Origin: Candidatus Shapirobacteria bacterium CG_4_10_14_0_8_um_filter_39_15
GTDB taxonomy: Bacteria > Patescibacteriota > Microgenomatia > UM-FILTER-39-15
DNA length: 64,000 nt
Direction: 5' to 3'
Assembly: GCA_002784465.1 (NCBI GenBank)
Contig: PFLE01000011.1
Location: 3,966 to 67,965 of the forward strand
A program made the translations under genes and the position numbers. Below, piece by piece: positions 1,776-32,055 of this stretch (its first letter is position 1; every line of letters starts with the position of its first letter). The notes under the pieces were generated by a model. The model saw only the letters and a list, made by a program, of their open reading frames with translations. It ran no database searches and had not been told where the DNA came from.

Positions 1776-1838
1776 CTGTTAATTTTAGGCCGAATAATGA
1801 CTCTTGACAAGAGTTTTGGGTTTTGTTAGGGTATATAT

Positions 1839-2459
1839 ATGCCGGTAACATTATACAAAAGACAAAAGCAAATCTACGATTTTATTTCCCAATACATCCA
1901 AAAATTCGGCTGCTCGCCAACCCTTCAGCAAATAGCCGACGCGATTAATGTTCATTCTCTGGCCACCATTCACGAACATTTACAGGCAATGGTCAAAAAG
2001 GGCGTCATCCGTAAATACGAAGGAACAATTCGGGGAATTGAATTGATTGACAAAAAAATGGGTGAACTGACCAAAGGGATTGAAGTGCCGATTTTGGGCT
2101 ATATTGCCGCCGGCGCACCAATAGAACCATTCACTGATCCCAATGCCACTTTGCAAGTTTCAGCCTCAATGCTTTCAGGTGGAAAATCCTCCTTTGTTTT
2201 ACAAGTTAAAGGCGAGTCAATGATTGAAGACGGCATTCTTCCGGATGATTATGTCGTGGTTGAACAGCAGGAAGTCGCCAATAACGGCGATATTGTGGTG
2301 GCGCTATTAGATAACGGCTTTGCCACTTTAAAACGATTTTATAAAGAAGCCAGCCGGATCCGTTTGGAACCAGCAAATGCTAAAATGTCTCCTATCTTTG
2401 CCACAAGAGTAAGAATTCAGGGAAAAGTGGTGGGAGTAATCAGAAAATATCAGGTTTAA
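1839..2459 (+). CDS. lexA: LexA repressor (wHTH plus S24 autopeptidase)
   Basis: 206 aa. The N-terminal wHTH is followed by the cleavage-site motif GYIAAGAPIEP. The Ser of GESM and the Lys of TLKRFY form the S24 dyad. Confidence 0.85.
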   Translation: MPVTLYKRQKQIYDFISQYIQKFGCSPTLQQIADAINVHSLATIHEHLQAMVKKGVIRKYEGTIRGIELIDKKMGELTKGIEVPILGYIAAGAPIEPFTDPNATLQVSASMLSGGKSSFVLQVKGESMIEDGILPDDYVVVEQQEVANNGDIVVALLDNGFATLKRFYKEASRIRLEPANAKMSPIFATRVRIQGKVVGVIRKYQV

Positions 2460-22248: not shown

Positions 22249-22707
22249 TTATTTATTCATTCTTCCGACGTATTCACCCTGAGTTGGAAAACCTTTCTTA
22301 TAATCTTCAAAGAGTTTCTGTGATAGCGGGTGAGGAAAAAGATTTGCCGGTAAATTGTCGCTATCCAACCAAGTACACCAAACCGATCCATCGGAATGTT
22401 GCGGATCTAGAAGATGCTCTAATTCTTTAGATTTATCGATATCCCCTAAAATAAATAATTCGACACTGTGTTCGTTTTCTTCCGGTAAAATAAAAGCTCT
22501 GATATAGAGAACCTTTTTAAATTCGAATTTGGCTCCGTCACATTCTTCCGCTACTTCTCTAATGGATCCTTCCATAACCGTCTCCCCATATTCCAAATGT
22601 CCGCCGATGTAGTGATAATAATCGTGTTTTTGACGATACTGAACTAATACCTTGCCGTTTTTTATAACTACAATTCTTAACCTTACATTGATCTTGTGGT
22701 TTTCCAT
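22249..22707 (-). CDS. NUDIX hydrolase
   Basis: Complete Nudix box GGHLEYGETVMEGSIREVAEECDG. Confidence 0.8.
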   Translation of the reverse strand: MENHKINVRLRIVVIKNGKVLVQYRQKHDYYHYIGGHLEYGETVMEGSIREVAEECDGAKFEFKKVLYIRAFILPEENEHSVELFILGDIDKSKELEHLLDPQHSDGSVWCTWLDSDNLPANLFPHPLSQKLFEDYKKGFPTQGEYVGRMNK

Positions 22708-22783
22708 CTTTTTGAGTTTAAATCAAACCGGGTGAAAATGCTATAGTCCTGAGCGAGTGTGGCGAGTCGAAGGACAAAAAAAC

Positions 22784-23188
22784 TTAAATTATTTTTTGAA
22801 ATATTTCATTGGGAATAAGAATTCTAACGTTATCTCCCTCGTCTCGAACGAAAATAGTCCCGTATTTATCCTGAAAGGCAGTTTCGAGAATCGTGATAAT
22901 GCCTGGTCTGTTTTTTGTTTTTGGATCTAAATGCCCAATCATTTCTGCCATATATTCTCCAGTACCTCCACTTAAAATTAGAATTTCAACACCGGCTTTT
23001 AAAGCCACATTTTCCATTCTTAACATTAATTTATTTACCCTTAGGTTGTTGTAATGAAACAGCCTGTCTCGGTAAAGAAGAGAGAAAGGATAATATTGAG
23101 TTAACCAAGTCATAAATGAACAATTTAGGCTTTTCAGTTTCCAAAAGATTGAAAAAGAAGTTTGCGGTATGATCTTTTGATCTAACAT
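22784..23188 (-). CDS. hypothetical protein, possibly a remnant of a Rossmann-fold (LOG/DprA-like) gene
   Basis: Only the C-terminal ~80 aa (VEILILSGGTGEYMAEMIGHL...) look protein-like. The N-terminal half is low quality. Confidence 0.2.
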   Translation of the reverse strand: MLDQKIIPQTSFSIFWKLKSLNCSFMTWLTQYYPFSLLYRDRLFHYNNLRVNKLMLRMENVALKAGVEILILSGGTGEYMAEMIGHLDPKTKNRPGIITILETAFQDKYGTIFVRDEGDNVRILIPNEIFQKII

Positions 23189-23242
23189 AAGACTAAATGG
23201 AGTTTAAAGCAGTCGAAAGGAAAATGCAAAAAACATTCCCCT

Positions 23243-23255
23243 TCCGATGTGGAAA
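23243..23255. repeat. half-copy of the REP-A palindrome (TCCGATGTGGAAA)
   Basis: Matches the right arm of REP-A at 3941-3954. It lies in an accessory region. Confidence 0.4.
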
Positions 23256-23382
23256 TTACGAAACTTCCTCCCAATTTTCCTTCAAGTCAAATAATTAAAG
23301 TGTTTTCGGACATCGTAACTTGTAGTTTGATTTGGGATTATTTTCATCGTTTTTATTTCACCCGATAAAGCATCGCGGGCCC

Positions 23383-23628
23383 TCATAACACACTCCTCAT
23401 TATTCCAGGAGTTTTAGAAAACGGATATTTTTTATCGTTCATAAAATCGTTGTCCAATGTAACGAGTGAATAACCCTTGCTTTTACAGTAATCAAAATAA
23501 TACTGATCTCCCTTATTCCTTAAATTAAGATCGATTGCATTGAATAACCTTACATTTTCTTTTAGATTACTATTTCTTATAGAGTTAGCCACCTCTATAT
23601 GTTTTAAGTATATTTTTTGTCTTTTCAA
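23383..23628 (-). CDS. hypothetical protein, divergent from the LexA-MTase gene
   Basis: 81-aa ORF with no motif. Confidence 0.3.
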   Translation of the reverse strand: MKRQKIYLKHIEVANSIRNSNLKENVRLFNAIDLNLRNKGDQYYFDYCKSKGYSLVTLDNDFMNDKKYPFSKTPGIMRSVL

Positions 23629-23739
23629 GATTTTTGTTTAAATAAATTAATCTTTTCTCAACTTCCGGATATTTTATTTAAGTAATTTAACCCCTTGACA
23701 ACTTTCGTATTTCTTTCGTATAGTATATCTACAATTAAA

Positions 23740-25173
23740 ATGAAAATCAAGACCCTTACACCTAAACAAAAGAAAGTACTCGATTTTATAAACAAATTCA
23801 TCAAAAAGAACGGTTATTCTCCATCCTTGGAAGAAATGGCTAGTTACCTAAAATTGAATTCGGTCTCTACGGTTCATCAATTTATAGAAATCCTAAAAAA
23901 CAAGGGTTATATTAACAAGGAAGAAAATAAACCCCGATCAATTACCTCTGGATTTACCGAAATCCCCCTTTGTGGTTATATTGCAGCAGGCGAACCAATA
24001 GAGGCAATTTCTAATCCTCAACCGTTCAAGATTCCACAGGCTATCGTTAGTAAGACTGGCTTTTATTACGCTTTAAAAGTTAGAGGAAATAGTATGGTTG
24101 AAGACTGTATATATGATGGAGATACAATAATAATTAAACATCAAGATACCGCTGAAAATGGACAAAAAGTAGTGGCTCTAATTGACAATCTTGAAGTAAC
24201 TCTCAAAAAGATTTATAAAGAGAATGGGAAAATTAGATTACAACCGGCAAATCGAAACATGAATCCTCTCTTTGTCGATCCCTCAAGAGTAATTATTCAA
24301 GGAATAGTAATAGATATTCTTAAAAATAAGTCGATCGTTTCGGAGACGCCACTTATAGATCATACCGCACGACATATAAACACTAACCCCAAAGATCTAG
24401 GTGAATTATTGAATCAGGTAATAGAAGGTGACTGTCTTGAGGTGATGAACAGTATACCAAATAAATCCATCGATATGATATTATGTGATCTCCCTTATGG
24501 AAATACTCAAAACAACTGGGATAGTGTTATTCCGTTAGATAAACTTTGGTCGCACTATGAACGAGTTATTAAAAATAACGGCGTAATCGCTTTAACCTCT
24601 CAAGGATTATTTACTGCCAAATTAATTTTGAGTAATCCAAAACTGTTTAAATATAAAATCGTTTGGATTAAATCTAAATCTACCAACTTCTTAAATGCCA
24701 AAAAACAACCATTAAGACGACATGAAGATATTTGTATTTTCTACAAAAACCAACCGTCTTATAATCCTCAAATGTCACCCGGGGAACCTTATAATAAAGG
24801 TTTCAGAAAAAATCAACTTACGGGGAGTTATGGTGATTTTAATTCAGTCGAGGTTAAAAGTGACGGCTTACGTTATCCTACAGATGTCGTTTACTACAAA
24901 ACCGCAGAAAGCGAAGGAAAAGTATTTCACCCGACCCAAAAACCAGTAGAACTGGGAAGGTATTTGATTAAAACGTTCACAAAAACAGGCGATATTGTTT
25001 TAGACAATACTTGTGGCAGTGGTAGTTTCCTTGTTGCAGCAATCTTGGAAAAAAGACGGTTTATTGGGATCGAAAAAAATCAAGAAACATTCTTACATAA
25101 AAAACAGAGGGTTAACTATATCGAAATATGCAAAGAAAGAATAGAAAAAGCTAGAAAAGAACTAAAGAAATAA
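23740..25173 (+). CDS. fusion protein: LexA-like wHTH/S24 autopeptidase (N-terminal) plus beta-class DNA N6A/N4C methyltransferase (C-terminal)
   Basis: One uninterrupted ORF (track 23695..25173; ATG at 23740 preferred). Residues 1-200 are a paralogue of lexA: CGYIAAGEPIEA cleavage motif, GNSM Ser, TLKKIY Lys. Residues ~215-477 carry DLPYG (motif IV), then HPTQKPVEL, then NTCGSGSFLVAA (motif I), which is the PF01555-type order. Confidence 0.8.
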   Translation: MKIKTLTPKQKKVLDFINKFIKKNGYSPSLEEMASYLKLNSVSTVHQFIEILKNKGYINKEENKPRSITSGFTEIPLCGYIAAGEPIEAISNPQPFKIPQAIVSKTGFYYALKVRGNSMVEDCIYDGDTIIIKHQDTAENGQKVVALIDNLEVTLKKIYKENGKIRLQPANRNMNPLFVDPSRVIIQGIVIDILKNKSIVSETPLIDHTARHINTNPKDLGELLNQVIEGDCLEVMNSIPNKSIDMILCDLPYGNTQNNWDSVIPLDKLWSHYERVIKNNGVIALTSQGLFTAKLILSNPKLFKYKIVWIKSKSTNFLNAKKQPLRRHEDICIFYKNQPSYNPQMSPGEPYNKGFRKNQLTGSYGDFNSVEVKSDGLRYPTDVVYYKTAESEGKVFHPTQKPVELGRYLIKTFTKTGDIVLDNTCGSGSFLVAAILEKRRFIGIEKNQETFLHKKQRVNYIEICKERIEKARKELKK

Positions 25174-25912
25174 CTAAAATTTGGTTAATTTTTTCGATTT
25201 CTTGATCAGTAATTTGACCTTTCTCTTTTAGCCACTGCAAGAAATGAAAATATTGATTAGGGTGCAAAATTGGTCTTACAACTTCGACTAGACCAATTTG
25301 CTCTTTAACAAAATTAAGGTGTTTTTCTTGAAGAACCCCTCGTCCTATTAAGTCATAAACAATTCTAATAGCGTCCGCAGAAGTAAGATTTAAGTCTCCT
25401 TTTCTGTTCTTATCGATTTCAACATCTTGCGAACTAATTGACAAAATGTCTTCTAAGGTATTAAAACCATTTAGGTTCTTATTATAGAATTCTATCTCTT
25501 GCCCCCGATAAGTAAACCACGTTTTTCCTTGTTCTGTTAAAGATCCTCGAGGTAAATAAACCCCTTCTCTTTCGACCCTTTCTTTCGAAACCCAACCACA
25601 AACATACAAAATCCATTTTTTCTGCTTCTTTGTTCCCGGTAATAATCTGTTGCTGGGAGTTTCTAAGTGGGTCATTAAATATATGTCTGTATCAAGCTTT
25701 TTGTCGTATACTTGTCTTGCAAAAAAGTTGTGTTTAGCCTCTCGGGGAATTTTATCACCACTTAGATATTCCTCTTTAAACGGTAAGGATCCTCCTCTGC
25801 ATTTAACATCAATCTTAACTCCGGTTGGAAGTAAAATATCATAAGCAATCGAGTGATTTTCCATTGTCATTTCTGGCAATCCTAGTTTATTTCGAAGAAC
25901 AATCTCGGCCAA
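25151..25912 (-). CDS. putative PD-(D/E)xK restriction endonuclease (partner of the methyltransferase)
   Basis: Convergent with the MTase, with a 23-bp 3' overlap. Candidate catalytic motif YDILLPTGVKIDVKCR (D-x10-D-V-K). No family-level match recognised. Confidence 0.45.
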   Translation of the reverse strand: MAEIVLRNKLGLPEMTMENHSIAYDILLPTGVKIDVKCRGGSLPFKEEYLSGDKIPREAKHNFFARQVYDKKLDTDIYLMTHLETPSNRLLPGTKKQKKWILYVCGWVSKERVEREGVYLPRGSLTEQGKTWFTYRGQEIEFYNKNLNGFNTLEDILSISSQDVEIDKNRKGDLNLTSADAIRIVYDLIGRGVLQEKHLNFVKEQIGLVEVVRPILHPNQYFHFLQWLKEKGQITDQEIEKINQILVISLVLF

Positions 25913-26233
25913 TGCTCCGAAACCTTGCTCTTCGATATTTCCTCGTTCTGCGCCTGTCTTATTCAGATTTTTCGATATAGATTGCGCAGCTTGTTCACGT
26001 AAACTAAAACCTAAATCATCCGTGAGTTTTATAACTATTGGTCTTGGGGAATAATATTTATAGATCTTTCCTATTTTAGCACTTTTTATATTCTAAAATG
26101 AAATTCATAGAAAATAGAAGAAAATTAAAAGAAGTTATTATTTATAACAACTATCACAATTTGTCCCAATTTTACTTTACTTCTCTTTTCTTCACAAGAA
26201 AGAAGGAAAGTTGAGGGAAATAATTAAAGATTC

Positions 26234-27013
26234 TTATCCTGCTCTTTGTGCTTCTTGTGTGAGAGGAGAAGAAATTGGCGTAGGAGTTTTTTCACCTGGT
26301 CGGTGAAGACTAATATCACCGCAAGCCTGCCAAATATGTTCAAGCACTGGCATTATTCGGGGATTATTAATCGCTATTACTTTATTTAAGGGAGAATAAA
26401 GAAAATTATTAAGTCCTCCTTTGGTGGAATTTTTTAACTTTGAAAATTCATGAAACCCGGCATATAAACTCTCGGGGTATTTGGGATCTGGGTTTTGGGC
26501 TATAGATCTTCCTAAATCAAGGGCATTAAGAAAATCTTTTTCTCTCATTTTTCCTTCCGGACGATCACCAATGCAATATAGATGAAAAAGAGTTTCTGCT
26601 GACAAGGTAGGAAATTCTACTACCTGCGGTGGAACACTAACGTTAATCTTTCCAAATTTAAGGGTTGCCTCACTGGGTTTAATTTCTGCAATATTATGAT
26701 AAACAGCCCCGATACTTAACGGGGTTGGATTCTCGCGTCGAACTTTAACGGCTAAATCTTTTTTTGCTTGAGAAAATAGAATATCAACGTCTCTCCAAGT
26801 TCCTTCCGGGCTCATAACCACAAAATCCTCCTTTTGTAAAACTGCATCCCTGGCAATTCCGCCAATTACCCACCACCCTTCTTTTCCACCAGCTTCTTGC
26901 TCCACTACAGTTAGAAGATTATGTAAATGAGTCAGGTAAACTTCTCTATCTTGTGGAGTGCTTTCAACAATACGAACATTTCCTCTGGTATTAATTACTC
27001 TATCCGGAAGCAA
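26234..27013 (-). CDS. nucleotidyltransferase-fold protein (pol-beta-like NTase superfamily)
   Basis: WWVIGGIARDAVLQKEDFVVMSPEGTWRDVDILF fits the hG[GS]-x9-13-DhD pattern. Confidence 0.4.
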   Translation of the reverse strand: MLPDRVINTRGNVRIVESTPQDREVYLTHLHNLLTVVEQEAGGKEGWWVIGGIARDAVLQKEDFVVMSPEGTWRDVDILFSQAKKDLAVKVRRENPTPLSIGAVYHNIAEIKPSEATLKFGKINVSVPPQVVEFPTLSAETLFHLYCIGDRPEGKMREKDFLNALDLGRSIAQNPDPKYPESLYAGFHEFSKLKNSTKGGLNNFLYSPLNKVIAINNPRIMPVLEHIWQACGDISLHRPGEKTPTPISSPLTQEAQRAG

Positions 27014-27084
27014 GCCATTTATGGATTGTTAACTAAAGCCATTGTTGGGCAAAAGTACCACCACCATATCTTCCGGCAGATGAT

Positions 27085-27309
27085 CTAACGCCAACCGCAA
27101 TTGAATTCCATAACATTAAAACTTGGATTATGCATTTGTTCCCAAGCACCCATAAATTGAATTGTGTATTTCGTAGATAACCAATTGGCAATCACAATAC
27201 CGGTTGCTTCACGATCTTTGAACTTTGCCATGTCAGTCAAAGATATATATTCTTCTTCCTTATCTTTAATTACCGATATTTTAAGTCCATGAGCGATAAT
27301 TTTCTTCAT
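27085..27309 (-). CDS. Bro-N/KilA-N-like domain fragment (phage anti-repressor N-terminal domain)
   Basis: ISVIKDKEEEYISLTDMAKF resembles Bro-N (IRVI.D..GE.WF.A.DVAKAL). Only 74 aa. Confidence 0.35.
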   Translation of the reverse strand: MKKIIAHGLKISVIKDKEEEYISLTDMAKFKDREATGIVIANWLSTKYTIQFMGAWEQMHNPSFNVMEFNCGWR

Positions 27310-28314: not shown

Positions 28315-28420
28315 TTGAAGTATTTTAGCAGATTTTAGAAGAAAATAAAAGTGCAGTACCGGAAGAATATCAAAACAACAAGAAAGTTGTACTTTTCTTA
28401 TTATTGAACCCCTCCGGTAC

Positions 28421-30403
28421 TTAGAAGTTCACAACTGGACCGTCGTATGTAATCTTACCCATATTGATGATCACAACGCGAGAAGCAGTCTTTGCCACCT
28501 GCTGGTCATGGGTAACGATTACGACGGCGATTCCTTTTTGTATCAGTGCTTGTACTAAATCTAGAACTTTGGCAATTCCGTCTGCATCAAGCCCGATGGT
28601 TGGTTCGTCTAGAATCAGGACTTGAATTCCCGCGGTTGAGGCAGAAATCGCGAGCATTTCTACTTCACTTGGATGAAGATCCAATGGACAGCTTAGTGGT
28701 TCCAAACCGGTCCAATCAATTCCTTCCGTAACGAACGCTTCAATTCTACCCGAATCCCAATGTTGTATTTTAGGACTGAACGAAAGTTCGTCATTCACTG
28801 TCATTGAGATAGTTTGAAGAGAGGCATTTTGAAAGACGTAGCCGACTCCTCCTCTCGCCTTGACATTTCCCTTGATTGGCTTAATTGCACCGGCAAGAGT
28901 CAGCATCGCAGTTGTTTTTCCGGAACCATTAGGTCCCATAACAACCACAAGTTCGCCTTCTCTTAAGTCTAGCGAGATGCCGTTAAGAATTGCTGTTCCG
29001 TCTAGCTCCACATAGACATTGTCCATTTTAGCGATAATCTCTCCCGGAATAACAGACATTGGTGGCCGGAATTCGCGTAGAAGAGAGTATCGGGAAAGCA
29101 TCTCTTCGGTGAAGAACTCTCCGGGAAGAACATCCTGCGCAATTGTTCCTTTTTCTAGGGTAACTACCCGTGTAACAAAAGGTTTTATTTCACTCCAAAA
29201 GGGATCAGCGATTATCACGGTGCAAGGATTTTGAACGAGGAAATCCTTAAGAGCACTCAAGAATTCCTGCCGTCCTTGCGGATCAAGTTCCTGCATTGGG
29301 GAATCAAAAAGAAGAATTTTTGCTGTAGAAGCGAGAATTCCGGCAAGAACAAGCCGAACTTGCTGTCCTCCCGAAAGTTTAGTTATCTCCTTTTCCCACA
29401 AATCCCCGATTCCCATTATCTCAAGGGTTCTTCGTGCACTGATTTCGTTTTCGGCGAGGAAAGTTATCTCCTGCCCAACAGTGAGTCCGTGAAACGAAGC
29501 AAAGGGATCCGGGGATATATAACGGACTGATCCGGAAAGTTTTGCTAGGGACGTATTCATCGTATTCATCCCTGATGCAGTAACGCTTCCCATGAATTCG
29601 CCCATAATTGAACTGATAATACCCCCTACTACCCTAAGGAGCGTCGTTTTTCCAGATCCCGACCTCCCTGCTAGGTAGATAAATTCTCCACCATCAACCC
29701 TTAGGTTAATTCCCGTCAATACATCCGGAAGGAGGGGCGAGTAGCGAACATGTACGTCATTCAGAATAAGATCCCCATTTCCTTCAGGCTTTGTTCGTGT
29801 ATGCGATAAGCTGGCGGCTGCTCCTTTCTGAGTGTTGTCTATCACTCGAGGAATTATCGCCATTGCAAGTGGAATGAGATTCCTAATACTGGCGATTGGC
29901 GAATCCCACTTCAGCCCACGAATGATAAGCGATTGCGTGAGAGCCACAAACTCTCTTTTGATAATCTGGACCCCTCGAAGAATTGTCAAAACCCAAGGTT
30001 CTGCAGGTTTTATCCAGGATAATCCTTCGTACATCTCTGGAAGAGAGGTAGAAAGAAGCCAGGCAAACGAGATAAGCATCGCCCCGATGATTCTTGTCCC
30101 CATCACCAATCCTCTCTCGAAACCTGCTTGGTTCACTGTGAAAACTAACCATTGCCAGCCGCCATGACCTCTAGCGGAGAAAATCACGTTATAGAAAAAC
30201 ATCATCGCCCCGGTAATGGGAGCAGCTAAAACCAACTTCCAATTCCGATTTTCGCCCACAAGATAAATTACAATTCCAACAAGAAGGAAAAGGATTGCAC
30301 CCGGAATGTTGTTAATGAAAATGTAGAGACAACCGCTGGTGAAAACGACTACCAGCCTCACTCTTGGTGATAGAAAAGACAAACCTCTCTTCCTCGTCTT
30401 CAT
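28421..30403 (-). CDS. fused ECF-transporter T component (CbiQ/EcfT) plus two ABC ATPase domains (EcfA/EcfA')
   Basis: N-terminal multi-TM EcfT-like region, then Walker A GRSGSGKTT and signature LSGGQQ, then a second Walker A GPNGSGKTT. GC is far above the genome background. Confidence 0.75.
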   Translation of the reverse strand: MKTRKRGLSFLSPRVRLVVVFTSGCLYIFINNIPGAILFLLVGIVIYLVGENRNWKLVLAAPITGAMMFFYNVIFSARGHGGWQWLVFTVNQAGFERGLVMGTRIIGAMLISFAWLLSTSLPEMYEGLSWIKPAEPWVLTILRGVQIIKREFVALTQSLIIRGLKWDSPIASIRNLIPLAMAIIPRVIDNTQKGAAASLSHTRTKPEGNGDLILNDVHVRYSPLLPDVLTGINLRVDGGEFIYLAGRSGSGKTTLLRVVGGIISSIMGEFMGSVTASGMNTMNTSLAKLSGSVRYISPDPFASFHGLTVGQEITFLAENEISARRTLEIMGIGDLWEKEITKLSGGQQVRLVLAGILASTAKILLFDSPMQELDPQGRQEFLSALKDFLVQNPCTVIIADPFWSEIKPFVTRVVTLEKGTIAQDVLPGEFFTEEMLSRYSLLREFRPPMSVIPGEIIAKMDNVYVELDGTAILNGISLDLREGELVVVMGPNGSGKTTAMLTLAGAIKPIKGNVKARGGVGYVFQNASLQTISMTVNDELSFSPKIQHWDSGRIEAFVTEGIDWTGLEPLSCPLDLHPSEVEMLAISASTAGIQVLILDEPTIGLDADGIAKVLDLVQALIQKGIAVVIVTHDQQVAKTASRVVIINMGKITYDGPVVNF

Positions 30404-30484
30404 ATCTGCCTCCTAGAATACGTGGGACCGGACAGGCCAAATTGGGAACTGTCCGATCCCACTGACTAATGGAACCCAACAATG

Positions 30485-31270
30485 TTATTCGGCAATGCCG
30501 GCCTGGCGCAGGCGAAGGGTATATAGGGGTAAGAGGAACAACCCCAAGACGGCGGAGACCGTATCCCCCACAAACCAGCCGACACCAGGATCGATTAAGG
30601 CTGCCTCGATTGGTTTGCCACCCACGTAGGCTGCGAAGGCACCGATCAGCGCACTGACTCCACAGGCAACGACGGCAATGTCCACCGCGAGAACAAAGTG
30701 ATCCATGTTCAGGTTTCTGCCAACGTTCCCCAGGATGACGGGCACGCCCACCACCAGAACGATAAGGGGCAGAGCCAGACCCCAAGGGGATGGCAAAGCC
30801 AGAACAATATTGACCAGACCCGCCGCCATGACCGCCAGAGCGAGCACGACGACGCGAACGGCCCCGTTCAGCACGTCATACGGATCTTTGCAGCCGAACG
30901 TAGGATCAAGTCTTAACATTCGGAACAGAAGGGCAGGCAGCATTGCGTTGGCAAACCCGCCGGCAATGGGATTCTGGATGATGTCCGTAATACCCCATCC
31001 GCCATACGCGAAAATACCGGCTGTATACGCACCGAGTCCGCCTGCCACCGCTCCGAGCCATGGTCCAAGCCAGATTCCCGCGACCAACTGCAAGGCCGCA
31101 GGTAACCAGATGAAGCTCGCCCCCTTCACAGAGGGTGACGAACCAACGGTTATCATGACCCAACCGATCGCGGCGATGGCCACTGCCAGAAAGCCGGCGA
31201 AGGTGTAGCGTAGAACCGGGTCACGTCGTGCAACGTACGTCTTAGAACTTGCCATTGGAATTTCCTCCAT
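30485..31270 (-). CDS. integral membrane protein, putative ECF S-component (substrate capture subunit)
   Basis: 261 aa rich in Ala/Gly/Val/Leu with multiple TM helices. It lies between the ECF T/A gene and a 5-FCL-family gene. Other ORFs overlapping this GC-rich stretch are spurious. Confidence 0.45.
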   Translation of the reverse strand: MEEIPMASSKTYVARRDPVLRYTFAGFLAVAIAAIGWVMITVGSSPSVKGASFIWLPAALQLVAGIWLGPWLGAVAGGLGAYTAGIFAYGGWGITDIIQNPIAGGFANAMLPALLFRMLRLDPTFGCKDPYDVLNGAVRVVVLALAVMAAGLVNIVLALPSPWGLALPLIVLVVGVPVILGNVGRNLNMDHFVLAVDIAVVACGVSALIGAFAAYVGGKPIEAALIDPGVGWFVGDTVSAVLGLFLLPLYTLRLRQAGIAE

Positions 31271-31284
31271 TTTACTAACTTTTT

Positions 31285-32055
31285 TTACAGCTGAGAAGAA
31301 AGCCTGGTCGGCATACCTACCACCTCCTCCTGCATCGCCTGAAGCTCCCGAAGCGGAGGGATTGACCCCAACATTCCTGGCTGGAGACTATCCCAAACCA
31401 CCCCAAGAGTGGGTTTGTGCGGCTCGTCGACCTTGATCATCCTTCTCGGAGTGCAAATCAGATCACAAGCCGTGTCGAATGGATCGGCGGAGAATTGCTC
31501 GGTGACCACCTGGCAGTCATGAACAACTGCGACTACCGGTGTTTTGGCACTGACGACGCCGATTGAATAGAACATGGCCCATTCAAGATCGAAATAGCCA
31601 TGCCCTTTACCAATACGAATCCCTCCGATTGTTACTGCCCCTGTTCCGGTCACTAACAAGTCAATTTTGCCGAATATGCTTTTGATGCTTTGGAGTGATA
31701 TGATAGCACCTTCGTTTTCCATGCCATCCAGGGTAGCGGCATAAAGGTACCGGCTTTTTGGGATACCAGGACCGAGAAGAACAAACCCCCTCCGAATTCC
31801 ATATGTAGAAACAATGATCGTTTTTTCTTGCCATAAAGCATGGTAGCGCAACCTTTCCAAACAATTATCCGGGGTGATGAAGACAGTATCTGCCTGTCTC
31901 CAAAAATCGCTCCTTATTAACCGACCCAGGGCTTGACCGCTTCCTACAAAATCCGCGATAAATTCACCCAGATCCATGTCGAATCGGCTATCGGGACGAG
32001 CAACCCCCTTCCTTAACTTCTCAAAAACTGCTTGCCTGACTTCATTCTTATCCAT
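31285..32055 (-). CDS. 5-formyltetrahydrofolate cyclo-ligase-family (MTHFS-like fold) protein
   Basis: IGKGHGYFDLEW matches the GxGxGYYD motif, and ITPDNCLERLR is N-terminal-like. 256 aa. Confidence 0.5.
   Translation of the reverse strand: MDKNEVRQAVFEKLRKGVARPDSRFDMDLGEFIADFVGSGQALGRLIRSDFWRQADTVFITPDNCLERLRYHALWQEKTIIVSTYGIRRGFVLLGPGIPKSRYLYAATLDGMENEGAIISLQSIKSIFGKIDLLVTGTGAVTIGGIRIGKGHGYFDLEWAMFYSIGVVSAKTPVVAVVHDCQVVTEQFSADPFDTACDLICTPRRMIKVDEPHKPTLGVVWDSLQPGMLGSIPPLRELQAMQEEVVGMPTRLSSQL

What the first reader, a model, noticed from the sequence alone, without database searches (positions are those of the whole stretch)
23383..25912. LexA-like S24 autopeptidase fused to a DNA amino-methyltransferase, convergent with a PD-(D/E)xK nuclease: candidate SOS-wired restriction-modification module
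Seen in sequence: one uninterrupted 478-492-aa ORF (23740..25173).

Its first ~200 aa are a clear paralogue of the housekeeping LexA at 1839..2459. It keeps the wHTH, the RecA-dependent autocleavage motif (CGYIAAGEPIEA, against GYIAAGAPIEP in lexA), and the S24 Ser/Lys dyad (GNSM ... TLKKIY).

The C-terminal ~270 aa carry DLPYG (motif IV), then HPTQKPVEL, then NTCGSGSF (motif I). That is the motif order of beta-class N6-adenine/N4-cytosine DNA MTases (PF01555 type).

A convergent ORF (25151..25912) overlaps its 3' end by 23 bp. It has a plausible PD-x10-DVK nuclease motif, which makes it an R-like partner.

Inference: instead of a C-protein, this Type II-like R-M pair would be controlled by a LexA-type domain. 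Autocleavage at the AAG bond would sever the DNA-binding domain from the methyltransferase, or derepress the operon, upon DNA damage. I am not aware of a described LexA-MTase fusion.

The module sits in an accessory stretch (22.7-27.4 kb) with a Bro-N-like fragment, an NTase-fold ORF and a REP-A half-copy. This suggests it arrived on a mobile element.
Basis: partly seen in the sequence, partly recalled or inferred. Interest (0 to 1): 0.88.

Follow-up and report, generated by a model that had tools for sequence, protein, structure and literature searches.

The report
Self-cleaving LexA repressor fused to restriction-modification methylase
One gene in this candidate-phyla-radiation bacterium joins a complete DNA-damage-sensing LexA repressor to the protective methylase of a restriction-modification system, and the same design recurs in dozens of related uncultured bacteria with many different methylases and restriction enzymes, which suggests a previously undescribed way of tying self-protection to DNA damage.

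Summary
ORF 23740..25173 (477 aa) is uninterrupted and carries LexA_DNA_bind, Peptidase_S24 and N6_N4_Mtase. It is not an assembly artefact: 87 of the best 120 database clusters share the architecture.

All 74 fusions examined keep the Ala-Gly cleavage bond and the Ser/Lys dyad. The closest LexA modules are fused to at least four DNA methyltransferase classes (beta N6/N4, Dam-like D12, gamma N6/Eco57I, C5). In most subfamilies the next ORF downstream is convergent. Eight of those tested match Type II restriction endonuclease families (TaqI, BsaWI, MvaI/BcnI, EcoRV, Pab1, BglII, HNH, Bsp6I).

About 91% of fusion genes have an 11-bp-period direct repeat (TTTCK-N6-TTTCK) in their promoter. Its sequence covaries with a recognition-helix residue. 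In the window it fills the TTGACA-18-TATAGT spacer (23702-23721).

Best reading: a Type II R-M system whose methylase represses its own gene and is derepressed by RecA-stimulated self-cleavage.

- The partner gene spans 25151..26065. It has ATC where 32/32 homologues have ATG, and its nuclease fold is unproven.
- Cleavage would release a ~9.5 kDa fragment, not ~22 kDa.
- Some relatives also keep a C-protein.

No published description was found.

The parts
23695..23700 (+). -35 hexamer TTGACA of the methylase promoter
   Evidence: Promoter scan: TTGACA-18-TATAGT, 11 of 12 matches, the best in the region.
23702..23721 (+). Predicted operator: direct repeat CTTTCGTAT-TT-CTTTCGTAT (period 11) filling the promoter spacer
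   Evidence: Unique in the window; 0.07 matches expected by chance. The same repeat type occurs in 67-72 of 74 fusion promoters against 4% of random windows. It covaries with recognition-helix residue 47.
23719..23724 (+). -10 hexamer TATAGT, overlapping the second repeat unit
23740..25173 (+). LexA-S24-methyltransferase fusion gene (477 aa)
   Evidence: Uninterrupted ORF. Three Pfam domains. Identical to NCBI 'hypothetical protein COT44_04420, Candidatus Shapirobacteria', and 87 clusters share the full architecture.
23740..23928 (+). Winged-HTH LexA DNA-binding domain (residues 1-63; recognition helix S43-T-V-H-Q47)
   Evidence: PF01726 at 7e-18. AF2 helices 8-24, 30-36 and 42-54, with a low-confidence hinge at 64-70.
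23986..23991 (+). Ala83-Gly84 predicted self-cleavage bond
   Evidence: Invariant in 74 fusions and 12 plain LexA proteins. Lies between strands 72-82 and 85-99 of the model.
23950..24327 (+). S24 autopeptidase / dimerisation domain (residues 71-196; Ser118 at 24091-24093, Lys156 at 24205-24207)
   Evidence: PF00717 at 2.7e-27. Ser and Lys are invariant. Best solved relative is Thermotoga LexA 3k2z at 4e-37.
24328..24396 (+). Variable linker (residues 197-219)
   Evidence: No conservation in the alignment. pLDDT below 50 for residues 197-215.
24397..25170 (+). Beta-class N6/N4 DNA methyltransferase domain (motif IV DLPY 24487-24498; motif I DNTCGSGSF 25003-25029)
   Evidence: PF01555 at 7e-26. 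PADLOC MTase_II PDLC03251 at 1.3e-66. 68-80% identical to stand-alone methylases in many phyla. PDB relatives are CcrM, RsrI and MboIIA.
25151..26065 (-). Conserved convergent partner gene, predicted restriction endonuclease (304 codons)
   Evidence: 72-76% identical to a 305-aa family. Found directly downstream and convergent in about 40 loci, whether or not the methylase carries LexA. No family or fold match.
26063..26065 (-). ATC codon at the position of the homologues' ATG start
   Evidence: 32 of 32 homologous loci have ATG; the window has ATC. The first canonical start in frame is TTG at 25912.
25802..25840 (-). D76 ... D86-V-K88, a PD-(D/E)xK-like motif of the partner protein
   Evidence: Invariant in 30 homologues, together with E54. 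This is a motif only; the fold is not confirmed.
25151..25173 (.). 23-bp overlap of the 3' ends of the two convergent genes
1804..2459 (+). Stand-alone lexA with its own promoter (TTGACA 1804-1809; repeats TTTTGGGT 1814-1821 and GTTAGGGT 1825-1832, period 11; CDS 1839-2459)
   Evidence: Pfam LexA_DNA_bind plus S24. Sequence and coordinates. Its box and recognition helix (ATIHEHL) differ from those of the fusion.

Best explanation
This is a Type II restriction-modification cassette in which the methyltransferase is translated as one polypeptide with a complete LexA repressor: winged HTH, hinge with an Ala-Gly bond, S24 Ser/Lys autopeptidase and dimerisation domain, a flexible linker, then a beta-class N6/N4 methylase.

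Proposed mechanism:
1. The fusion dimerises through the S24 domain. It binds the 11-bp-period direct repeat in the spacer of its own promoter (23702-23721) and represses its own synthesis. This keeps the methylase at a low, buffered level. It also allows a burst of methylase when the cassette enters a naive cell that has no repressor yet.
2. DNA damage, including breaks made by the cassette's own endonuclease when methylation falls behind, generates RecA filaments. These stimulate self-cleavage at A83-G84.
3. Cleavage detaches the ~9.5 kDa DNA-binding domain from the S24-methylase body. The promoter is derepressed and more methylase is made. This would be a damage-sensing feedback on the M:R balance.
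4. The convergent gene 25151..26065 is the endonuclease partner. In this genome it has ATC in place of the start ATG, so restriction may be attenuated or lost.

Shown here: the architecture, its conservation, the operator and its covariation with the helix, and partner conservation. Inferred: DNA binding, cleavage, and the direction of the physiological response.
For: - Fusion is real and conserved.
- The N-terminal module passes the LexA equivalog cutoff and matches solved LexA structures end to end.
- A83, G84, S118 and K156 are kept in 74/74 fusions, although the modules diverge to 44% identity.
- The model shows three folded modules joined by low-confidence linkers.
- Operator: an unbiased search finds period 11 in 60 of 71 strong repeats. 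The repeat is present in 67/74 fusion promoters against 4.1% of random windows. It usually lies between TTGAC and TATAAT.
- The same repeat type sits in promoters of plain CPR lexA genes.
- Patescibacteria LexA is cited as a direct-repeat binder (PMC7739468).
- Helix residue 47 covaries with the box: 44/45 and 27/27, Fisher 6e-19, not corrected for phylogeny.
- R-M context: the partner is conserved next to this methylase in about 40 loci.
- In other LexA-methylase subfamilies the convergent partner hits RE_TaqI, RE_BsaWI, MvaI_BcnI, Endonuc-EcoRV, RE_R_Pab1, Endonuc-BglII, HNH and RE_Bsp6I.
- Unbalanced R-M activity is known to induce SOS (PMC3874152).
- Variants with only the wHTH, or with the S24 core deleted, show that DNA binding is the core function and S24 an added layer.
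Against: - No experiment supports binding, cleavage or methylation. RecA is not in the window.
- The operator PWM built from relatives scores the window site no better than the best hits in shuffled sequence. The case for the window rests on the exact repeat and its position.
- The helix-box covariation largely separates two LexA clades, so it counts few independent events.
- The partner protein matches no nuclease family or fold. The AF2 model has pLDDT 60.6 and the searches were meaningless.
- The window's R gene lacks an ATG and its last ~8 residues differ from the family.
- After cleavage the methylase remains attached to the S24 domain. By analogy with E. coli LexA fragments it might be degraded, which would reverse the predicted outcome.
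Confidence: 0.6

Rival explanations
1. The LexA module is used only as a DNA-binding and dimerisation module. The fusion would be a constitutive autorepressor, like the HTH-methylases of the SsoII/EcoRII type, and self-cleavage would play no physiological role.
For: Versions of the same methylase carry only the wHTH (L036, L037, P0103, P0105, P0114) or have the S24 catalytic core deleted (P0089, P0094). They still pair with the same partner gene and a similar repeat. Autoregulation therefore works without a protease.
Against: The Ala-Gly bond, Ser and Lys are kept in 74/74 full-length fusions across modules that are only 44% identical. That pattern is hard to explain without selection for cleavage.
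Confidence: 0.2
2. A damage- or infection-triggered suicide switch. Cleavage would expose degradation signals: the new C-terminus ...YIAA resembles the VAA/LAA ClpX tags. The S24-methylase fragment would then be lost, methylation would fail and the endonuclease would kill the cell, as in abortive infection or post-segregational killing.
For: The cleaved N-terminal fragment would end in I-A-A. From my own knowledge, E. coli LexA fragments are degraded by ClpXP and Lon after cleavage. R-M systems behave as toxin-antitoxin-like addiction modules (PMC3874152).
Against: Cleavage also removes the repressor from the promoter, which should raise methylase synthesis. The enzyme half carries no recognisable degron. 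Existing methyl groups persist, so killing would need several rounds of replication. Nothing here was tested.
Confidence: 0.1
3. In this particular genome the cassette is decaying. The endonuclease gene is no longer expressed, and the LexA-methylase survives as a solitary, damage-responsive methylase or as a remnant. This is compatible with the best explanation for the family as a whole.
For: The window has ATC where 32/32 homologues have ATG. No canonical start occurs upstream of TTG 25912, which would remove the first 51 residues. The C-terminal tail differs from the conserved ...EE.FSGI end. A 100%-identical cluster from another assembly has yet another tail (P0121).
Against: The remaining 304 codons are free of stops and 72-76% identical to homologues. 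ATC can act as a weak start, and weak translation of a toxic endonuclease may be tolerated or even favoured. A single-base consensus error in a metagenome assembly cannot be excluded.
Confidence: 0.3
4. The fusion is an artefact: a missed stop or frameshift, or a chimeric assembly joining lexA to a methylase gene.
For: None beyond the fact that the window comes from a metagenome-assembled genome.
Against: 87 independent 90%-identity clusters from NCBI, JGI, ENA and Logan assemblies have the same three-domain architecture at 59-69% identity. Seven GTDB species representatives and 31+ metagenome contigs show uninterrupted fusions.
Confidence: 0.01

Closest known systems
LexA, the SOS repressor (TIGR00498; PF01726 + PF00717), including the direct-repeat-binding LexA proteins of Alphaproteobacteria (GTTC-N7-GTTC) and Patescibacteria
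   Same: Same wHTH, Ala-Gly bond and Ser/Lys dyad, at nearly the same residue numbers as E. coli LexA. The gene sits behind its own box. The box is a direct repeat of period 11, like GTTC-N7-GTTC (PMC8565304).
   Different: LexA is a ~200-aa stand-alone regulator of a regulon. Here it is the N-terminal third of an enzyme. No second site was found in the 64-kb window, and the genome also keeps a separate lexA (1839..2459) with a different helix and box.
Autoregulatory HTH-methyltransferases of Type II R-M systems (M.SsoII, M.Ecl18kI, M.EcoRII, M.MspI, M.ScrFIA), recalled from my own knowledge
   Same: An N-terminal DNA-binding region is fused to the methylase and binds the cassette's own promoter region. 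It sets methylase level without a separate C-protein, or in addition to one.
   Different: Those are short HTH extensions on C5 methylases with no protease domain and no known link to RecA or SOS. Here the regulator is a complete, apparently cleavable LexA, attached to at least four methylase classes.
C-protein (controller) regulated Type II R-M systems (PvuII, BamHI, Esp1396I type)
   Same: Both have a dedicated transcription factor inside the cassette that times and balances M and R. Relatives L002 and L012 do carry an HTH_3 C-like gene just upstream of R.
   Different: The window has no C gene. The regulator is on the M side and fused to the enzyme. The input would be DNA damage rather than C-protein concentration.
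Restriction alleviation in Type I R-M systems (ClpXP-dependent loss of HsdR after DNA damage), recalled from my own knowledge
   Same: Same physiological logic as the proposed mechanism: restriction pressure on the host chromosome is relieved when DNA damage and repair create unmodified sites.
   Different: Alleviation acts by proteolysis of the restriction subunit of Type I enzymes. Here the proposed lever is transcriptional derepression of a Type II methylase through LexA-type self-cleavage.

Membership tests
LexA repressor family (TIGR00498) | N-terminal winged-HTH LexA DNA-binding domain | tested here: met
   PF01726 residues 4-66, 7e-18. TIGR00498 scores 178 bits against a cutoff of 111.
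LexA repressor family (TIGR00498) | S24 domain with Ser/Lys catalytic dyad | tested here: met
   PF00717 at 2.7e-27. S118 and K156 are invariant in 74 fusions.
LexA repressor family (TIGR00498) | Ala-Gly self-cleavage bond in the hinge | tested here: met
   A83-G84 is invariant.
LexA repressor family (TIGR00498) | Own gene preceded by a LexA box (autoregulation) | tested here: met
   A period-11 direct repeat lies in the promoter spacer. The repeat is shared with plain CPR lexA promoters and covaries with the helix. Binding itself was not tested.
LexA repressor family (TIGR00498) | RecA-stimulated autocleavage and control of an SOS regulon | not testable with these tools
   Needs biochemistry. 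No further site of this box type was found in the window.
Beta-class N6-adenine/N4-cytosine DNA methyltransferases (PF01555) | Domain match, with motif IV (D/S-P-P-Y type) before motif I (FxGxG) | tested here: met
   PF01555 residues 244-450, 7e-26. DLPY at 250-253 comes before DNTCGSGSF at 422-430. PADLOC MTase_II at 1.3e-66.
Beta-class N6-adenine/N4-cytosine DNA methyltransferases (PF01555) | Target base and recognition sequence | tested here: inconclusive
   The nearest solved relatives are m6A enzymes: CcrM, RsrI, MboIIA. CTSAG is the most depleted word in loci carrying this M-R pair, which is only a hint.
Type II restriction-modification system | Methylase gene adjacent to a conserved partner gene that travels with it | tested here: met
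   The partner is directly downstream and convergent in about 40 loci, with or without the LexA module.
Type II restriction-modification system | Partner is a site-specific endonuclease | tested here: inconclusive
   Invariant E54, D76 and D86-x-K88, but no hit in Pfam, NCBIfam, PADLOC, PHROGs or PDB and no fold match. By analogy, partners of sibling fusions are known restriction endonucleases.
Type II restriction-modification system | Intact, expressible endonuclease gene in this genome | tested here: inconclusive
   There are no internal stops, but the start position is ATC where 32/32 homologues have ATG.
C-protein controlled R-M systems | Small HTH_3 controller gene upstream of R, with C-boxes | tested here: not met
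   No such ORF lies between 26066 and 26233 or elsewhere in the cassette. It is present in relatives L002 and L012.
SsoII-type autoregulatory HTH-methylases | C5 methylase with a short N-terminal HTH that binds the intergenic promoter region | tested here: not met
   The window enzyme is a PF01555 amino-methylase and its regulator is a full LexA. The two work alike in principle but are not homologous. One sibling (L151) is a C5 methylase, but it also carries the full LexA.

The most novel reading that the evidence does not exclude
LexA-methylase fusions would be a general, so far undescribed control principle of Type II restriction-modification in Patescibacteria. The protective methylase would itself be the DNA-damage sensor. 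Chromosome breaks made by its own endonuclease, or by other damage, would trigger RecA-dependent self-cleavage and a burst of methylase, closing an autoimmunity feedback loop. The regulator-operator unit would be swapped freely among unrelated methylase and endonuclease pairs. In about half of the cassettes a perfect DnaA box next to the promoter would add a replication-initiation input.
Probability: 0.35. Interest if true: 0.9.

Novelty: new variant of a known kind. Interest (0 to 1): 0.78.

Why it matters
R-M systems must keep methylation ahead of restriction. The known solutions are C-proteins, HTH-methylases, promoter methylation and antisense RNA. None of these senses the actual danger, which is damage to the host chromosome.

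A cleavable LexA built into the methylase would be the first direct wiring of a Type II R-M system to the RecA/SOS signal. It would be a Type II counterpart of restriction alleviation.

It appears in organisms (CPR/Patescibacteria) with tiny genomes that rely heavily on R-M for defence and cannot yet be cultured. Sequence-derived, testable regulatory logic is therefore valuable there.

The family also offers a natural set of matched LexA-helix and operator pairs, and a portable damage-responsive repressor-enzyme design. The proposed mechanism can be tested in E. coli with a handful of constructs.

Tried and rejected
- **Bridging to a known nuclease family.** A profile search of 1.84 billion representatives found only 59 relatives. 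The distant ones hit no nuclease family in Pfam. The fold remains unproven.
- **Generic operator PWM.** A PWM from 78 relatives' sites ranks the window's own site first at 14.2 bits, but shuffles reach similar scores. It could not define a regulon in the window or a site at the R promoter.
- **Phage origin.** Only 2 of 55 IMG/VR hits are fusions. Rejected as the main habitat.
- **Fixed chromosomal platform.** The idea was that R-M cassettes are swapped in behind a resident LexA module. Upstream neighbours are unrelated between loci, so the whole promoter-M-R unit moves.
- **Compositional island or tRNA-flanked insertion in the window.** GC is 0.31-0.36, like its neighbours from 18 to 28 kb, and there is no nearby tRNA.
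- **Literature.** Seven searches found no description of a LexA-methylase fusion. The one paper most likely to mention it could not be read. It is Sanchez-Osuna, Barbe and Erill 2017, Environ Microbiol 19:3465, on the Patescibacteria SOS network.
- **recA in the window.** Not found.


Full report
**1. The observation**

The ORF at 23740..25173 (+) is uninterrupted. The alternative TTG at 23695 is the -35 hexamer of the promoter, so ATG 23740 (477 aa) is the likely start.

Pfam finds three domains in order:
- LexA_DNA_bind, residues 4-66, 7e-18
- Peptidase_S24, residues 76-191, 2.7e-27
- N6_N4_Mtase, residues 244-450, 7e-26

The N-terminal 196 residues pass NCBI's LexA equivalog model, at 178 bits against a cutoff of 111. 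They align end to end with solved LexA structures; the best is Thermotoga LexA 3k2z at 4e-37. The C-terminal part matches PADLOC's Type II methylase model PDLC03251 at 1.3e-66. Its nearest solved relatives are CcrM, RsrI and MboIIA.

Motif IV (DLPY) precedes motif I (DNTCGSGSF), which is the beta-class order.

An AF2 model (mean pLDDT 68) shows three folded modules. They are separated by a low-confidence hinge (residues 64-70) and a low-confidence linker (residues 197-215).

A separate, ordinary lexA lies at 1839..2459. It is 39-41% identical to the fused module.

**2. Not an artefact, and conserved where it matters**

The protein is identical to NCBI 'hypothetical protein COT44_04420' of a Candidatus Shapirobacteria genome. 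Of the best 120 database clusters, 87 have the same three-domain architecture at 59-69% identity.

In a 24-sequence alignment A83, G84, S118 and K156 are invariant. The same holds for all 74 fusions and 12 plain LexA proteins recovered from loci. These LexA modules diverge to 44% identity.

Residue numbers almost coincide with E. coli LexA (A84-G85, S119, K156; from my own knowledge).

**3. The partner gene**

The frame is open and homologous from 26065 to 25151 (304 codons). It is 72-76% identical to a 305-aa family.

Homologues lie directly downstream of this methylase, and convergent to it, in about 40 loci. This holds in three situations:
- the methylase carries the full LexA module (L001-L007)
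- it carries only a wHTH (L036, L037)
- it carries nothing (L008-L035, L041, L044, and the archaeal L063)

E54, D76 and D86-V-K88 are invariant, which fits a PD-(D/E)xK site. Nothing else confirms a nuclease:
- no hit in Pfam, NCBIfam, PADLOC, PHROGs or PDB sequences
- only 59 relatives among 1.84 billion representatives, none bridging to a known family

In the window the codon aligned with the homologues' Met1 is ATC. All 32 homologous loci with a complete 5' end have ATG. The last ~8 residues also differ from the family.

**4. The wider pattern**

I searched metagenome contigs with the LexA part alone. Most of the closest LexA modules (45-63% identity) sit in ORFs of 428-643 aa.

Their C-terminal parts form 20 clusters, and 19 of these are DNA methyltransferases:
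- many N6_N4_Mtase subfamilies, including permuted ones
- Dam-like MethyltransfD12 (L155, L153, L133)
- gamma-class N6_Mtase/Eco57I (L102)
- C5 DNA_methylase (L151)

In most clusters the next ORF downstream is convergent and abuts or overlaps the methylase 3' end.

Pfam recognises eight of these partners as Type II restriction endonucleases:

| Pfam family | Locus |
|---|---|
| RE_TaqI | L098 |
| RE_BsaWI | L083, L085 |
| MvaI_BcnI | L122 |
| Endonuc-EcoRV | L133 |
| RE_R_Pab1 | L107 |
| Endonuc-BglII | L091 |
| HNH | L099 |
| RE_Bsp6I | L151 |

Three clusters have a second, co-directional methylase followed by a long convergent ORF.

LexA modules up to 89% identical are joined to methylase domains from different clusters. 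Within one methylase cluster the LexA modules fall to 44% identity. Upstream neighbours are unrelated between loci. The regulator-operator unit and the enzyme pair are therefore shuffled, and the whole promoter-M-R cassette moves.

Among GTDB species representatives, six of the seven fusion loci are labelled Patescibacteria-group (Moranbacteria, Parcubacteria, Patescibacteria); L002 is labelled 'uncultured Planctomycetales'. Only 2 of 55 IMG/VR hits are fusions.

**5. The operator**

The window promoter is TTGACA (23695) - 18 nt - TATAGT (23724), with 11 of 12 matches. Its spacer is filled by CTTTCGTAT-TT-CTTTCGTAT (23702-23721). This repeat is unique in the window, with 0.07 matches expected by chance.

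An unbiased search for the best direct repeat upstream of each gene returns period 11 in 60 of the 71 cases with at least 8/9 identity. A TTC[GT]-N7-TTC repeat with at least 7/11 unit identity is present in 67 of 74 fusion promoters. It is present in 4.1% of random windows from the same loci.

The repeat usually lies between TTGAC and TATAAT. In 16 of 84 cases it is inverted and lies just downstream of the -10. Promoters of plain CPR lexA genes carry the same kind of repeat.

Direct-repeat LexA boxes are known from Alphaproteobacteria as GTTC-N7-GTTC (PMC8565304). They are also cited for Patescibacteria (PMC7739468). I could not read the primary paper, Sanchez-Osuna et al. 2017.

The residue after the invariant His of the recognition helix covaries with the box. 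F/Y/H goes with TTCNA (44/45) and Q/E goes with TTCG[G/T] (27/27). Fisher gives 6e-19, not corrected for shared ancestry.

The window fusion has Q47 and TTTCGTAT. The window's stand-alone LexA has the helix ATIHEHL. Its own promoter carries TTTTGGGT and GTTAGGGT at period 11 (1814-1832). The two regulators probably have different specificities. This is an inference.

**6. Mechanism**

Shown:
- A full LexA is fused to the methylase of a conserved M/R pair.
- Its gene sits behind a LexA-type operator that overlaps the RNA polymerase binding site.
- The residues needed for self-cleavage are under strong conservation.

Inferred:
- The fusion represses its own promoter.
- RecA filaments trigger cleavage at A83-G84. 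This frees an ~83-aa DNA-binding fragment ending in ...YIAA and leaves the S24 domain attached to the methylase.
- The promoter is then derepressed.

The logic is attractive because unbalanced R-M activity itself induces SOS (PMC3874152). The methylase would rise exactly when the chromosome is being cut or when repair creates unmodified sites. The absence of repressor in a naive host would give 'methylase first' on establishment.

Derivatives exist with only the wHTH, or with an internal deletion of the S24 core that keeps the cleavage loop (P0089, P0094). This suggests autoregulation is the basic function and damage sensing an added layer.

The LexA module does not simply replace the C-protein. 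L002 has both the fusion and an HTH_3 C-like gene in front of R. L003-L005 have a MazE/AbrB-like gene there. The window has neither.

Rivals:
- constitutive autorepressor without cleavage
- a suicide switch if the cleaved methylase is degraded
- for this genome, a decaying cassette with an unexpressed endonuclease

**7. Comparison with what is known**

The system works like the HTH-methylase autoregulators (SsoII type) and, in outcome, like restriction alleviation. It is not a member of either.

It is a member of the LexA family by every sequence criterion I could test, and of the PF01555 methylases.

It qualifies as a Type II R-M system by gene-pair conservation and by analogy with its siblings. 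The endonuclease activity of this particular partner family is unproven.

I found no paper describing LexA-methylase fusions. Public annotations call these proteins 'hypothetical', 'LexA' or 'methyltransferase'. Prior mention in the unreadable 2017 paper cannot be excluded.

**8. Verdict**

It is a new variant of known kinds (LexA regulators; self-regulated R-M systems). It is widespread in Patescibacteria and modular across methylase and endonuclease families.

The main uncertainties are:
- the untested biochemistry
- the identity and integrity of the window's endonuclease
- the direction of the physiological response

Noticed in passing
Loci L001-L160, 40-90 nt upstream of LexA-methylase start codons (e.g. 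L003, L004, L092, L093, L096, L106, L119, L120); absent from window 23590-23740: A perfect DnaA-box 9-mer (TGTGGATAA / TTATCCACA) lies next to or in place of the -35 element in 36 of 74 fusion promoters. There are only 50 occurrences in the whole 532 kb of loci L081-L160, and it occurs in 1 of 11 plain lexA promoters. This suggests a replication-initiator input to these promoters. It is not explained.
   Followed up: partly
window 26063-26065 (- strand): The endonuclease-like gene has ATC where 32 of 32 homologues have ATG. The next canonical in-frame start (TTG 25912) would remove 51 residues. This is either attenuation or loss of restriction, or a consensus error.
   Followed up: partly
window (whole) and loci carrying the same M-R pair (L001-L037, L041, L043, L044, L063): CTCAG/CTGAG (CTSAG) is the most depleted word relative to other CPR loci. 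O/E is 0.40 against 0.65 (z -7.2). The window has 18 sites against ~48 expected, while CTAAG/CTTAG are not depleted. This is a tentative candidate for the recognition sequence and is confounded by phylogeny.
   Followed up: partly
L002 and L012 (HTH_3); L003, L004, L005 (MazE/AbrB-like), immediately upstream of the R gene: Some relatives carry a small regulator gene in front of the endonuclease gene. One type is a classical C-protein-like HTH_3 (1.7e-16). The other is a MazE/AbrB-like protein (6e-6). L002 combines it with the LexA-methylase.
   Followed up: yes
L011, L014, L021, L023, L026-L030, L032, upstream of the R gene: Unfused versions of this M-R cassette often abut the 3' end of a tRNA-like sequence (GGTTCGAATCC...CCGCCA). 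This fits insertion at tRNA genes. It was not checked with a tRNA finder.
   Followed up: no
Proteins P0089, P0094; P0103, P0105, P0114; loci L036, L037: Shortened derivatives of the same methylase exist. Some keep the cleavage loop (LGYISAGEPME) and the last S24 strand but lack the catalytic core, through an internal deletion. Others keep only the wHTH. These would be natural non-cleavable versions.
   Followed up: partly
window 1804-1841: The stand-alone lexA promoter has TTGACA, then TTTTGGGT and GTTAGGGT at period 11, and a TATATA box ending 2 nt before the annotated ATG. The mRNA may be leaderless, or the start may be mis-set. The box differs from that of the fusion.
   Followed up: no
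Loci L038-L080 (Bacteroidota, Campylobacterota, Bacillota and others) and L063 (Micrarchaeota): The methylase domain alone is 68-80% identical across distant phyla. Together with the partner gene it also occurs in an archaeal MAG. This is an unusually well conserved and widely transferred methylase.
   Followed up: no
window 28400-31800: GC content jumps from 0.31-0.38 (18-28 kb) to 0.45-0.57. The jump spans a 660-aa ORF (28421..30403) and the region downstream of it. Not examined.
   Followed up: no
window 22249-23628 and 26234-27309: The flanking ORFs are a NUDIX protein (1e-7), an 81-aa ORF with a weak DUF5615 match (0.0014), a 259-aa ORF with a faint nucleotidyltransferase match (phrog_1614, 0.008), and a 74-aa KilA-N fragment (6e-6; phrog_32500 2.4e-14). 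None is conserved next to the cassette in relatives.
   Followed up: partly
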